From: Escherichia coli | GTDB lineage: Bacteria; Pseudomonadota; Gammaproteobacteria; Enterobacterales; Enterobacteriaceae | Length of the DNA: 64,000 nucleotides | Reading direction: 5' to 3' (one strand) | Assembly (NCBI RefSeq): GCF_045037415.1 | Contig: NZ_CP173438.1 | Part shown: in pieces, positions 33,001 through 36,000 of the stretch | How positions within the stretch are numbered: position 1 is the stretch's first letter | Layout of the letters: every line of letters begins with the position of its first letter | Position numbers: made by a program

Positions 33001-36000
33001 GAGGAAGCGGCGCGGCAGAAAGTCTTTATGGTCGATCGCTTTGGCCTGCTGACCGACAAGATGCCGAACCTGCTGCCTTTCCAGACCAAACTGGTGCAGA
33101 AGCGCGAAAATCTCAGTGACTGGGATACCGACAGCGATGTGTTGTCACTGCTGGATGTGGTGCGTAATGTAAAACCAGATATTCTGATTGGCGTCTCAGG
33201 ACAGACCGGGCTGTTTACGGAAGAGATCATCCGTGAGATGCATAAACACTGTCCGCGTCCGATCGTGATGCCGCTGTCTAACCCGACTTCACGCGTGGAA
33301 GCCACACCGCAGGACATTATCGCCTGGACTGAAGGTAACGCGCTGGTCGCCACTGGCAGTCCGTTTAATCCAGTGGTATGGAAAGATAAAATCTACCCTA
33401 TCGCCCAGTGTAACAACGCCTTTATTTTCCCGGGCATCGGGCTGGGTGTTATTGCTTCCGGCGCGTCACGTATCACCGATGAGATGCTGATGTCGGCAAG
33501 TGAAACACTTGCTCAGTATTCGCCGCTGGTCCTGAACGGCGAAGGTCTGGTACTACCGGAACTGAAAGATATTCAGAAAGTCTCCCGCGCAATTGCCTTT
33601 GCGGTTGGCAAAATGGCGCAGCAGCAAGGCGTGGCGGTGAAAACGTCTGCCGAAGCTCTGCAACAGGCCATTGATGATAATTTCTGGCACGCCGAATACC
33701 GCGACTACCGCCGTACCTCCATCTAAGCCTGCGCCCGGTAGTGAGGGCTACCGGGCAATTTTCCTCTCCCTTTTTCAGATCTCATCCATACTGGGTAGTG
33801 GCGAATAAATCTCATTTGCCTCACCTGCTATGCAGAACATCATCCGAAAAGGAGGAACTATGAAGGCTGCAGTTGTTACGAAGGATCATCATGTTGACGT
33901 TACGGATAAAACACTGCGCTCACTGAAACATGGCGAAGCCCTGCTGAAAATGGAGTGTTGTGGTGTATGTCATACCGATCTTCATGTTAAGAATGGCGAT
34001 TTTGGTGACAAAACCGGCGTGATTCTGGGACACGAAGGTATTGGTGTGGTGGCAGAAGTTGGCCCTGGTGTTACTTCATTAAAACCAGGCGATCGTGCCA
34101 GCGTGGCGTGGTTCTATGAAGGATGCGGTCATTGCGAATACTGTAACAGTGGTAACGAAACGCTCTGCCGTTCAGTTAAAAATGCCGGATACAGCGTTGA
34201 TGGCGGGATGGCGGAAGAGTGCATCGTGGTCGCCGATTACGCGGTAAAAGTGCCAGATGGTCTGGACTCGGCGGCGGCCAGCAGCATTACCTGTGCGGGG
34301 GTCACTACCTACAAAGCCGTTAAGCTGTCAAAAATTCGTCCAGGACAGTGGATTGCTATCTACGGTCTTGGCGGTCTGGGTAACCTCGCCCTGCAATACG
34401 CGAAGAATGTCTTTAACGCCAAAGTGATCGCCATTGATGTCAATGATGAACAGTTAAAACTGGCAACCAAAATGGGTGCAGATTTAGCGATTAACTCACG
34501 CACCGAAGACGCCGCCAAAATTGTGCAGGAGAAAGCCGGTGGCGCTCACGCAGCGGTGGTGACAGCGGTAGCTAAAGCTGCGTTTAACTCGGCGGTGGAT
34601 GCTGTCCGTGCAGGTGGTCGTGTCGTGGCTGTCGGTCTGCCGCCGGAGTCTATGAGCCTGGACATCCCACGGCTGGTGCTGGATGGTATTGAAGTGGTCG
34701 GTTCGCTGGTCGGCACGCGTCAGGATCTAACCGAAGCCTTCCAGTTTGCCGCCGAAGGCAAAGTGGTGCCGAAAGTCGCCCTGCGTCCGTTAGAGGACAT
34801 CAACACCATCTTTACCGAGATGGAAGAAGGCAAAATCCGTGGCCGTATGGTGATTGATTTCCGTCGCTAAGAGGTCTTTGCTGCGACTGCCATGTTCGGG
34901 TCGCAGCCTGTTTCGCGAGACGCTTTCCGTAATTTCACTCTTCTTCTTTTCCTCCCCCATATTTCCCCTCACAATTCGCGAAAACGTAGCGAAATTTGTT
35001 GCGCTGCACGGAACAATAGTGATAGTGTTCCTTTTGAGGGAACAAGGATGAAGAGATGATAATGAATTTCAGACACAAGGGATTGCGTGACTTGTTTCTT
35101 CTCGGCAAAACCTCCGGCGTTATACCGACGCAAGTCAAACGATTACGCCACCACTCGCTGTGATTGATGCAGCATGCTGTCTTGCTGATATCGATATGCC
35201 CGGTTACCGACTACATCCGTTAAGCGGCGATCGCGATGGAATTTGGGCGATATCTGTCTCGGGCAACTGGCGAATCACATTTGAATTCGTCAATGGCGAT
35301 GCATACATACTGGATTACGAGGACTATCACTGATGAAAATGGCCAATCATCCCCGCCCGGGGGACATTATTCAGGAATCACTGGACGAACTTAATGTCAG
35401 CCTGCGCGAGTTTGCCAGAGCAATGGAAATTGCGCCCTCAACGGCAAGCCGATTGCTGACCGGAAAAGCAGCTTTGACGCCAGAAATGGCAATAAAACTT
35501 TCCGTGGTGATCGGCAGTTCGCCGCAAATGTGGCTGAATCTGCAAAATGCCTGGAGTCTGGCAGAGGCGGAAAAAACGGTGGATGTGTCGCGACTGCGCC
35601 GTCTGGTTACGCAATAAAAAATGGCGCTTCTTAAAGCGCCATTTTCAGCTTAAAGTTCAAAAGAGATTATATCCCTTCTTCACTCTCTTTTTTCGCTTCT
35701 GCCTTCTCGATTTCACGATACCAGCGCGGATGGTGTTTCTTCGCCCAGCGACGGCTCACCTTCCCTTCGATCATCCCTTTAATCGATCCTTTCACCCAGA
35801 ATGCCATATACATATGGATCAGGATGGCGTGGATCAGGATGATACCCGCAGCCGCATGGATCAGCAGGCTATAACGGACAACCTGTATCGGGAAGTACTG
35901 CGCAAAGTACGGACGCCAGATAATCACTCCGGTCACCAGCAGCACGAAAATCATGCTCATGATTGACCAGAACATCATCTTTTGCCCGGCGTTGTACTTA

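What the first reader, a model, noticed from the sequence alone, without database searches (positions are those of the whole stretch)
35056..35617. Degenerate toxin-antitoxin pair: frameshifted HigB-like toxin upstream of intact HigA-like yddM
Two frames together give a complete COG3549-type killer protein (MIMNFRHKGL... then ...[40 protein letters not shown]). They are separated by a single frameshift in a CCACCAC tract, and the toxin stop overlaps the antitoxin start (TGATG). Toxin decay with antitoxin retention suggests the antitoxin is kept as a regulator or for cross-protection.
Basis: seen in the sequence. Interest (0 to 1): 0.5.

Follow-up and report, generated by a model that had tools for sequence, protein, structure and literature searches.

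The report
Frameshifted higB toxin beside intact yddM
This is an ordinary, already annotated dead toxin gene (a HigB-type mRNA-cutting toxin broken by the loss of one G) next to its intact antitoxin/repressor gene yddM in an E. coli ST131-type chromosome.

Summary
Window 35056-35333 is a HigB-family toxin gene broken by loss of one G (intact CCACCGAC, here CCACCAC, between 35152 and 35153). This gives a stop at 35161-35163. Adding the G back gives a 92-aa protein identical to the intact CFT073 toxin. That protein is 57% identical, without gaps, to Proteus vulgaris HigB, and all catalytic residues are conserved. The toxin stop overlaps the start of yddM (35333-35617). YddM is identical to the crystallised CFT073 "antitoxin HigA" (PDB 2ICP).

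The lesion is real. Exactly this allele is in 544 of 5,426 complete E. coli genomes, including named ST131 strains, and RefSeq already marks it "frameshifted".

Context:
- yddM is in 5,412 of 5,426 genomes; toxin DNA is in only about 1,330.
- E. albertii and ten Citrobacter species carry the toxin-yddM pair beside fdnI, so the pair is ancestral.
- The toxin has been lost repeatedly: whole-ORF loss in K-12-type strains, plus other small deletions.
- YddM stays under strong purifying selection.
- A conserved palindrome over a likely -10 element is the probable YddM operator.

Verdict: a known system and a known pattern of toxin loss. Interest is low.

The parts
34997..35003 (+). TGTTGCG block, invariant across Escherichia and Citrobacter. 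It contains the candidate -35 hexamer TTGCGC (34999-35004).
   Evidence: Invariant columns in a 12-sequence alignment spanning species with dS above 1. The promoter assignment is inference.
35010..35031 (+). Palindrome GGAACAATA/TAGTGTTCC (GGAACA-N10-TGTTCC), the candidate YddM (HigA) operator
   Evidence: Inverted repeat I4. It is the only perfect GGAACA-N10-TGTTCC match in the 64-kb window. The GGAACA arm and GTTCC of the TGTTCC arm are invariant in 12 sequences, including the toxin-less K-12 allele. Binding is inferred from HigA-family precedent (PMC5027501, PMC6987408).
35020..35028 (+). Candidate extended -10 element TGATAGTGT (TGnTAnnnT), overlapping the right arm of the palindrome
   Evidence: TG and the first T of the hexamer are invariant across species; the final T is nearly invariant. 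The spacer to TTGCGC is 18 nt. The generic promoter scan did not call it, so this is inference.
35039..35044 (+). Third GGAACA half-site. It forms a second inverted repeat with TGTTCC at 35026-35031.
   Evidence: Inverted repeat I7. GGAAC is invariant in 12 sequences.
35044..35048 (+). Shine-Dalgarno-like AAGGA of the toxin gene, 7 nt before ATG 35056
   Evidence: Read from the sequence. The start at 35056 aligns residue for residue with P. vulgaris HigB MIKSF....
35056..35333 (+). higB-like toxin pseudogene (278 nt; the intact allele is 279 nt, 92 codons plus stop)
   Evidence: RefSeq annotates it as 'type II toxin-antitoxin system RelE/ParE family toxin, frameshifted' in an identical ST131 locus. 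Matches PF05015 at 4e-17 and PDB 4mct_B at 1e-31.
35152..35153 (+). Frameshift site: one G lost between these two bases (codon 33, CGA Arg in the intact allele)
   Evidence: Alignment with CFT073.
35161..35163 (+). Premature TGA stop. The product is 32 native residues plus HSL (35 aa).
   Evidence: The residues matching the P. vulgaris HigB catalytic residues H54, D90, Y91 and H92, and N71, all lie downstream (PMC5027501).
35319..35323 (+). GAGGA Shine-Dalgarno of yddM, inside the 3' end of the toxin gene
   Evidence: Read from the sequence, 9 nt before ATG 35333. Inference.
35333..35617 (+). yddM, an intact HigA-family antitoxin and HTH-XRE DNA-binding protein (94 aa)
   Evidence: TIGR02607 antidote_HigA scores 93.7 bits against a cutoff of 47.7. 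It is 100% identical to PDB 2icp/2ict 'antitoxin higa'. RefSeq names it yddM, WP_000781370.1.
35618..35645 (.). GC-rich hairpin flanked by an A-run and a T-run, between the convergent genes yddM and fdnI; a likely bidirectional terminator
   Evidence: RNA fold: 12-bp stem, -16.2 kcal/mol centroid, z -2.3. The terminator scan did not call it. Inference.

Best explanation
This is the chromosomal higB-higA(yddM) type II toxin-antitoxin operon that lies beside fdnI in Escherichia and Citrobacter. Here it is caught just after the toxin was inactivated.

In the intact form, HigB would be a ribosome-dependent endoribonuclease that cuts A-rich codons in the ribosomal A site. YddM (HigA) would bind and neutralise it. 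As a dimeric helix-turn-helix protein, YddM would also sit on the GGAACA-N10-TGTTCC palindrome that overlaps the -10 region and repress the operon.

In this ST131-type chromosome, loss of one G in codon 33 stops translation after 35 residues. No catalytic residue is made, so the toxin is dead. yddM keeps its own ribosome-binding site and an intact frame, and it remains a DNA-binding repressor.

Toxin loss is the easy direction of decay, because losing the antitoxin first would be lethal. It has happened repeatedly at this locus, while YddM has stayed under purifying selection. That argues YddM has a toxin-independent regulatory role.

Shown here: the lesion, family membership, distribution, ancestry, the selection signal and the conserved upstream motif. 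Inferred: the toxin's activity, operator binding and any wider regulon.
For: Lesion and repair:
-.

Family membership:
- PF05015 at 4e-17, full length.
- 57% identity with no gaps to P. vulgaris HigB.
- H54, N71, R73, D90, Y91 and H92 are conserved (their roles are from PMC5027501).
- YddM scores above the TIGR02607 cutoff and is identical to PDB 2ICP.

The mutation is real and clonal:
- 544 genomes carry the exact allele, including JJ1886 and 'O25b:H4-ST131 strain 4433'.
- 493 genomes carry the exact intact CFT073 allele.
- The pseudogene is otherwise identical to CFT073 apart from one synonymous site.

The pair is ancestral:
- E. albertii, Escherichia sp. MOD1-EC7003 and 10 Citrobacter species have toxin plus yddM; fdnI lies beside them wherever the fetched DNA reached that far.

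Repeated toxin loss:
- A K-12-type toxin-less junction occurs in 2,996 genomes.
- A 17-bp deletion in AH21G053.
- An 11-bp deletion in C. portucalensis A60 and a roughly 190-bp deletion in Citrobacter sp. FP75.

Selection:
- dN/dS for yddM is 0.03-0.07 and for the toxin 0.04-0.11 against Citrobacter.
- Within E. coli, yddM shows 10-11 synonymous and 0 nonsynonymous differences.

Operator:
- The palindrome and the TGnTA block are invariant across 12 sequences, including the toxin-less K-12 allele.

Literature:
- The locus is described as ParE-2/HigA-2, with only the antitoxin present in K-12 and HS (PMC7232551).
- YddM binds DNA in K-12 by ChIP-exo (PMC6237786).
- P. aeruginosa HigA also regulates other genes (PMC6987408).
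Against: - No experiment on this E. coli toxin was found. Its toxicity and its neutralisation by YddM are inferred from 57% identity to P. vulgaris HigB.
- The promoter and operator assignment rests on conservation only. The generic sigma-70 scan did not call it.
- NCBIfam has no model that the toxin passes; RelE_StbE scores 17.4 bits against a cutoff of 27.9.
- A toxin-independent role for YddM is supported by conservation and by high-throughput data only. The delta-yddM drug phenotype was not complemented (PMC12457515).
- One toxin-less strain (AST215) has lost the palindrome yet keeps yddM intact.
Confidence: 0.85

Rival explanations
1. The frameshift is a sequencing or assembly error, and the toxin is really intact in this organism.
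For: Single-base indels are a common assembly error. The intact allele differs by only one base.
Against: The site is not a homopolymer run (CCACC|AC). The exact allele recurs in 544 independent complete genomes from many laboratories and platforms. Other B2 strains consistently carry the G. RefSeq annotates the frameshift.
Confidence: 0.01
2. The frameshift is bypassed by -1 ribosomal slippage or transcriptional slippage at CAC CAC T. A low level of full-length active toxin would then still be made, giving an attenuated rather than dead system.
For: A -1 slip after the second CAC would restore ...RHHLAVID... with only one residue changed (read).
Against: There is no X XXY YYZ slippery heptamer and no homopolymer run. 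No stimulatory RNA family was detected there. The allele is a recent derived state in one clone, not a conserved recoding site. All outgroups have the plain in-frame gene.
Confidence: 0.03
3. The truncated 35-aa N-terminal peptide is itself functional, for example by still binding YddM and modulating its repressor activity. That would explain why small lesions cluster after codon 24.
For: Four independent small lesions (ST131, AH21G053, A3, C. portucalensis A60) all fall in codons 24-35 and leave the start and the first ~24 codons intact. From my own recollection, not checked here, P. vulgaris HigA contacts N-terminal helices of HigB.
Against: Four events is a small sample. The most common toxin-less state (K-12 type, 2,996 genomes) removes the entire ORF. 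Citrobacter sp. FP75 has a large deletion. There is no evidence that a 35-aa fragment folds.
Confidence: 0.05
4. YddM is retained mainly as an anti-addiction or cross-protection factor against HigB-type toxins arriving on plasmids or encoded elsewhere, rather than as a transcription factor.
For: HigB-like genes occur on 538 plasmid records, 99 of them from Escherichia. B2 strains carry another PF05015 toxin next to ybaQ (PMC7232551). Orphan antitoxins have been proposed to act this way (PMC10790755).
Against: All but three plasmid homologues are below 60% identical to the cognate toxin, and type II pairs are usually specific. The operator is conserved even in toxin-less alleles, and ChIP-exo shows DNA binding (PMC6237786); both point to a regulatory role. 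No direct test exists.
Confidence: 0.1
5. Toxin-less yddM is the original state, and the toxin gene was inserted in the B2 lineage. On this view the ST131 state is decay of a recent acquisition.
For: About 75% of E. coli genomes lack the toxin. The promoter region of the two haplotypes is unusually divergent.
Against: Fourteen loci from other Escherichia species-level groups and from Citrobacter all carry toxin sequence directly upstream of yddM; fdnI is beside it in all 12 whose held DNA reaches that far. dS is above 1 and dN/dS is low. The K-12 allele keeps the toxin's operator and leader fused to yddM at the shared ATGAA.
Confidence: 0.03

Closest known systems
HigB-HigA of Proteus vulgaris plasmid Rts1 (PDB 4MCT/4MCX, 4YPB; the founding 'host inhibition of growth' system)
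   Same: - Toxin-first gene order.
- Both toxins are 92 aa and align without gaps at 57% identity.
- The residues matching catalytic H54, D90, Y91, H92 and the A-specificity residue N71 are conserved (PMC5027501).
- The antitoxin is an HTH-XRE HigA (E 1e-18 to 4mcx_A).
- There are palindromic sites in the promoter region.
   Different: - This locus is chromosomal and syntenic beside fdnI across two genera, not plasmid-borne.
- The toxin here is a pseudogene.
- The operator sequence GGAACA-N10-TGTTCC is inferred, not demonstrated.
E. coli CFT073 / NRG857c chromosomal pair: toxin WP_000605675.1 with HigA (PDB 2ICP/2ICT), called TA20 'ParE-2/HigA-2' in PMC7232551
   Same: It is the same locus. 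YddM is 100% identical, and the repaired toxin is 100% identical. The published description already notes that K-12 and HS keep only the antitoxin.
   Different: The window carries the -1 frameshift allele, which is absent from CFT073. It also has a shorter yddM-fdnI spacer.
Orphan yddM of E. coli K-12 (b1477), a ChIP-exo-validated Xre-family DNA-binding protein (PMC6237786)
   Same: The YddM protein is identical. The upstream palindrome is retained.
   Different: K-12 has lost the whole toxin ORF, so the toxin leader is fused directly to the yddM start. The window still has a nearly full-length pseudogene.
Pseudomonas aeruginosa HigBA / P. putida GraTA (PDB 6JPI, 6F8S)
   Same: Same HigB-like and HigA families. 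PaHigA both autoregulates through palindromes and represses other genes such as mvfR (PMC6987408). This is the precedent for a HigA with a regulon of its own.
   Different: Sequence similarity is distant (E 5e-7 for the toxin, about 1e-8 to 1e-11 for the antitoxin). The operator sequence is different (TTAAC GTTAA).

Membership tests
HigB-like toxin (Pfam PF05015 / COG3549 'plasmid maintenance system killer') | Significant full-length match to the family profile | tested here: met
   For the repaired protein, PF05015 gives i-Evalue 4.2e-17, covering residues 4-92 on model positions 2-91 of 91.
HigB-like toxin (Pfam PF05015 / COG3549 'plasmid maintenance system killer') | Colinear similarity to the characterised founder, P. 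vulgaris HigB | tested here: met
   52 of 92 residues identical with 0 gaps. E 1.2e-31 to 4mct_B.
HigB-like toxin (Pfam PF05015 / COG3549 'plasmid maintenance system killer') | Catalytic residues His54, Asp90, Tyr91, His92 and the A-pocket residue Asn71 (PMC5027501) | tested here: met
All lie downstream of the frameshift, so none is translated in this genome.
HigB-like toxin (Pfam PF05015 / COG3549 'plasmid maintenance system killer') | Toxin gene upstream of, and overlapping, a HigA-type HTH antitoxin gene | tested here: met
   There is a one-base TGATG overlap at 35331-35335. The same arrangement is seen in 12 of the 14 related loci examined; the other two carry deletions in the toxin gene.
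HigB-like toxin (Pfam PF05015 / COG3549 'plasmid maintenance system killer') | Intact open reading frame, that is, a functional member | tested here: not met
   There is a -1 frameshift after 35152 and a stop at 35161-35163. RefSeq marks it as a pseudogene.
HigB-like toxin (Pfam PF05015 / COG3549 'plasmid maintenance system killer') | Ribosome-dependent mRNA cleavage and growth inhibition | not testable with these tools
   This needs expression of the repaired ORF with and without yddM.
HigA antitoxin (NCBIfam TIGR02607 antidote_HigA, equivalog) | Score above the curated whole-protein cutoff | tested here: met
   93.7 bits against a cutoff of 47.7, covering residues 3-81 on model positions 1-80 of 81.
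HigA antitoxin (NCBIfam TIGR02607 antidote_HigA, equivalog) | HTH-XRE fold as in solved HigA structures | tested here: met
   100% identical over 94 of 94 residues to PDB 2icp/2ict 'antitoxin higa'. E 1e-18 to P. vulgaris HigA 4mcx_A.
HigA antitoxin (NCBIfam TIGR02607 antidote_HigA, equivalog) | Binds palindromic operator(s) in its own promoter and neutralises the cognate HigB | not testable with these tools
   Indirect evidence only: a conserved palindrome over the putative -10, and ChIP-exo DNA binding in K-12 (PMC6237786).
RelE/StbE mRNA interferase (NCBIfam TIGR02385) | Score above the curated cutoff | tested here: not met
   17.4 bits against a cutoff of 27.9, C-terminal half only. The relationship is at superfamily level only.
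Functional type II toxin-antitoxin module | Both toxin and antitoxin genes intact in the same operon | tested here: not met
   In the window the toxin is a pseudogene and the antitoxin is intact. The module is intact in CFT073, EC31, E20, E. albertii and most of the Citrobacter loci.

The most novel reading that the evidence does not exclude
YddM may be a domesticated antitoxin: a core-genome transcription factor of E. coli whose selective value no longer depends on its toxin. On this reading, the ancestral higB partner is being shed independently in many lineages (K-12-type ORF loss, ST131 -1, a 17-bp deletion, two Citrobacter deletions). The small lesions may be constrained to codons 24-35 so that the operator, the translation start and the 3'-embedded yddM ribosome-binding site stay intact. 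If so, this locus would be a clean natural time series, from intact to freshly broken to fully erased, for studying how an addiction module turns into an ordinary regulator.
Probability: 0.3. Interest if true: 0.4.

Novelty: already known. Interest (0 to 1): 0.15.

Why it matters
It matters little on its own. The pseudogene is already flagged in RefSeq. The locus is described in the literature as ParE-2/HigA-2, with only the antitoxin present in K-12 and HS. The antitoxin structure is in the PDB, and orphan antitoxins in B2/ST131 have been reported.

The modest value lies in the context assembled here. The higB-yddM pair is an old, syntenic chromosomal module shared by Escherichia and Citrobacter, not a recent mobile acquisition. 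Its toxin has been lost at least five separate times, while the antitoxin and its putative operator stay conserved. That makes it a convenient natural system for asking what antitoxins do after their toxins die. It is also a reminder that ST131 lacks one HigB-type toxin that other B2 pathogens such as CFT073, LF82, S88 and E2348/69 still carry.

Tried and rejected
- An 'O157 lineage deletion' that leaves the last 47 nt of the toxin. I first inferred this from record NZ_CP033605.1 (TR01). I rejected it as a lineage feature because that junction exists in only 1 of 5,426 genomes. An ordinary O157:H7 strain has the K-12-type junction. The TR01 spacer has exactly the K-12 length, with two equal-length substituted blocks, which suggests a recombinant or an assembly artefact.
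- The generic promoter and terminator scan found only one promoter-like site. It overlaps the toxin start codon and was not significant against shuffles. It found no terminator, so it did not help.
- Rfam scans of the locus and of the whole window found no RNA element at the locus, only the fdnG SECIS.
- PADLOC gave no toxin hit and only weak HTH hits for YddM. There is no evidence for a known defence system.
- The supplementary data of the YddM ChIP-exo paper (binding sites and motif) are not held. I could not compare the published motif with GGAACA-N10-TGTTCC.
- Searching the window for further copies of the palindrome found none beyond chance. A 64-kb window cannot address a regulon.
- Structure prediction was not run, because solved structures exist for YddM itself and for a 57%-identical toxin.
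Full report
**1. What is in the sequence**

The window is E. coli chromosome with the gene order maeA, adhP, [finding], yddM, then fdnI-fdnH-fdnG on the opposite strand. It is 100% identical over the finding to many complete genomes, including 'O25b:H4-ST131 strain 4433' and JJ1886.

From ATG 35056, one frame reads MIMNFRHKGLRDLFLLGKTSGVIPTQVKRLRHHSL and stops at TGA 35161-35163. A second frame continues ...[59 protein letters not shown] and ends at 35333.

Alignment with CFT073 shows that one G is missing between 35152 and 35153. The intact allele is CGC CAC CGA CTC GCT; the window has CGC CAC C-A CTC GCT. Putting the G back gives a 92-aa protein identical to the annotated CFT073 toxin WP_000605675.1. 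The only other difference inside the ORF is one synonymous site.

The toxin stop and the yddM start share one base, giving TGATG at 35331-35335. yddM (35333-35617) is intact.

**2. Family assignment**

- The repaired toxin matches Pfam PF05015 (HigB-like_toxin) end to end at E 4e-17.
- It matches the Proteus vulgaris HigB crystal structures at E 1e-31, with 52 of 92 residues identical and no gap.
- The residues shown experimentally to be critical in P. vulgaris HigB are His54, Asp90, Tyr91 and His92, plus Asn71 for adenosine specificity (PMC5027501). All are conserved at the same positions.
- All of those residues lie downstream of the frameshift. The 35-aa product made in this genome therefore cannot be catalytic.
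- NCBIfam has only a sub-threshold RelE/StbE hit: 17.4 bits against a cutoff of 27.9.
- YddM passes the TIGR02607 antidote_HigA equivalog model: 93.7 bits against a cutoff of 47.7.
- YddM is 100% identical over all 94 residues to PDB 2ICP/2ICT 'antitoxin HigA'. PMC6987408 identifies that structure as coming from E. coli CFT073.

**3. Is the frameshift real, and how widespread is it?**

Counts among 5,426 complete E. coli genomes:

| Feature | Genomes |
|---|---|
| yddM present | 5,412 |
| Toxin DNA present | about 1,330 |
| Exact 71-nt frameshift allele | 544 |
| Exact intact CFT073 allele | 493 |
| K-12-type toxin-less junction | 2,996 |

- The intact allele is found in, among others, ATCC 11775, S88 and LF82. 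Other intact variants make up most of the remaining toxin carriers.
- RefSeq (PGAP) already annotates the ST131 copy as 'type II toxin-antitoxin system RelE/ParE family toxin, frameshifted'.
- The lesion is therefore a genuine, clonally inherited mutation and not an assembly error.
- The site is not a homopolymer or a slippery heptamer, and the outgroups have a plain in-frame gene. Programmed recoding is therefore very unlikely.

**4. Ancestry and repeated toxin loss**

I scanned one genome per species for a back-translated YddM peptide and recovered 15 loci. One of them is a 214-base fragment that holds only part of yddM.

- E. albertii, Escherichia sp. MOD1-EC7003, two further Escherichia representatives and ten Citrobacter species all have a HigB-like gene directly upstream of yddM. 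fdnI lies beside them wherever the fetched DNA reached that far.
- The toxin-bearing state is therefore ancestral, and the module is an old chromosomal resident.
- Against Citrobacter, dS is about 0.9-1.7. dN/dS is 0.04-0.11 for the toxin and 0.03-0.07 for yddM. Both genes have been under purifying selection.

Against that background the toxin has been lost several times:

- ST131: -1 G.
- Strain AH21G053: a 17-bp deletion, also annotated 'frameshifted'. About 40 genomes cover less than 80% of the short query across this stretch, which is consistent with larger lesions there.
- K-12-type strains, including a typical O157:H7: complete ORF loss. The toxin's operator and leader are fused to yddM at a shared ATGAA.
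- C. portucalensis A60: an 11-bp deletion.
- Citrobacter sp. FP75: an out-of-frame deletion of about 190 bp between ATGGCGA repeats.
- Bat strain A3: an in-frame 9-bp deletion.

In every case yddM is intact. The YddM protein is identical in the window and in 11 of the 12 E. coli loci examined, across 2-11 synonymous differences. The exception is one O157:H7 strain with E80A and T93A.

**5. Regulatory anatomy (inferred)**

- Upstream of the toxin start is the palindrome GGAACAATA/TAGTGTTCC at 35010-35031, with a third GGAACA half-site at 35039-35044.
- The perfect GGAACA-N10-TGTTCC occurs only once in the 64-kb window.
- In an alignment of 12 Escherichia and Citrobacter sequences, the surrounding DNA is largely randomised but these blocks are invariant: TGTTGCG, GGAACA, TG-n-T, GTTCC and GGAAC. 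This includes the toxin-less K-12 allele.
- The TGnTAnnnT block (35020-35028) looks like an extended -10 element, 18 nt downstream of TTGCGC. The right palindrome arm overlaps it.
- A YddM dimer bound there would block RNA polymerase, which is the usual type II autoregulation (PMC5027501 introduction; PMC6987408).
- yddM has its own GAGGA 9 nt before its ATG (35319-35323), so it does not need translational coupling to the now-truncated toxin frame.
- A 12-bp GC-rich hairpin at 35618-35645, flanked by A and T runs, probably terminates both yddM and the convergent fdnI.

**6. Mechanism and interpretation**

The best explanation (confidence 0.85) is a recently pseudogenised HigB-type ribosome-dependent mRNA endonuclease next to a functional HigA-type antitoxin and repressor.

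The asymmetry is expected: the toxin decays and the antitoxin stays. While the toxin is active, losing the antitoxin is lethal, whereas losing the toxin costs nothing.

In this genome the retention of yddM says nothing about selection by itself, because the frameshift is too young.

- yddM is present in nearly every genome while the toxin is absent from about 75% of them.
- dN/dS is very low.
- The operator is conserved in toxin-less alleles.
- YddM binds DNA in toxin-less K-12 by ChIP-exo (PMC6237786).
- K-12 yddM mutants have reported phenotypes and genetic interactions. The epetraborole phenotype was not complemented (PMC12457515, PMC9283627).

The 'cross-protection' alternative is untested. 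HigB-like genes are common on plasmids, with 538 records of which 99 are from Escherichia, but all but three are below 60% identical to this toxin.

**7. Comparison with what is known, and novelty**

This is the same locus that PMC7232551 lists as TA20 'ParE-2/HigA-2' in AIEC NRG857c and CFT073. That paper already states that only the antitoxin is present in K-12 and HS. PMC10790755 reports reduced toxin repertoires and abundant orphan antitoxins in B2, including ST131.

The closest characterised relative is the Rts1 HigBA of P. vulgaris. The window's copy meets the sequence-based criteria for the HigB-like family but fails 'intact ORF'. It is a pseudogene of a known family member, not a new member or variant.

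Novelty: already known. Interest: 0.15.

The most novel reading still open is that YddM is a domesticated antitoxin with its own regulon, and that the locus offers a natural series of stages of toxin erasure. I put its probability at about 0.3 and its interest, if true, at about 0.4.

**8. Dead ends and corrections**

- My first inference of an 'O157 deletion' leaving a toxin 3' remnant came from a single anomalous record (TR01). I withdrew it.
- The generic promoter and terminator scans, Rfam and PADLOC added nothing at the locus.
- The published YddM motif could not be retrieved.

Noticed in passing
L003 (NZ_CP033605.1, O157:H7 strain TR01), locus 1400-1560: The adhP-yddM spacer is a mosaic found in only 1 of 5,426 genomes. 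It has the same total length as the K-12-type spacer (142 nt), but two blocks of 34 and 45 nt are replaced by the B2-type upstream sequence and by the last ~47 nt of the toxin gene. It is either a rare recombinant or an assembly or polishing artefact.
   Followed up: partly
L010 (SCU-106) about 75-95 nt upstream of yddM, compared with L004 (W3110): In some toxin-less alleles a 17-nt segment (GTTGCGTAGGAAGGAAC) is inverted between the inverted repeats ATTATT and AATAAT. This removes the left GGAACA arm of the putative operator.
   Followed up: no
L012 (AST215) upstream of yddM: A 29-bp deletion between two GGAAGGAAC repeats removes the whole palindrome and the putative -10, yet yddM is intact and encodes the standard protein. 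It is a natural operator-less allele.
   Followed up: no
Window 35125-35160 and the equivalent region in L006, L008 and L022: Four independent small lesions of the toxin gene all fall in codons 24-35 of 92: ST131 -1, AH21G053 -17 bp, A3 -9 bp in frame, and C. portucalensis A60 -11 bp.
   Followed up: no
Window 35618-35666, compared with L002, L004 and L011: The yddM-fdnI intergenic spacer comes in length classes. It is about 50 nt in the window, E20, SCU-106 and AST215, about 227 nt in CFT073 and W3110, and about 406 nt in AR_0069. This suggests a variable number of inserted repeat elements, which I did not examine.
   Followed up: no
L009 (O157:H7 strain 2-6-2) yddM: This O157:H7 strain carries a YddM variant (WP_001302113.1) with E80A and T93A. 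These are the only amino-acid changes seen among the E. coli alleles sampled.
   Followed up: no
Window 39617-39675 (- strand): A SECIS_3 element (RF01989, 84 bits) lies at the fdnG selenocysteine codon. This explains why the mechanical ORF list shows fdnG starting only at 39621.
   Followed up: partly
Plasmid record NZ_CP141085.1 (385,579 bp), 307268-307543: A record labelled as an E. coli plasmid carries a 100% identical copy of the chromosomal toxin. It may be a chromosomal fragment or a very large chimeric replicon.
   Followed up: no
L013 (C. werkmanii), L019 (C. gillenii) and L025 (Citrobacter sp. Res13) toxin genes: These intact Citrobacter toxins have Ser or Ala in place of Pro55, next to the catalytic His54 (LHSL or LHAL instead of LHPL). 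C. youngae lacks the first ATG (ACG).
   Followed up: no
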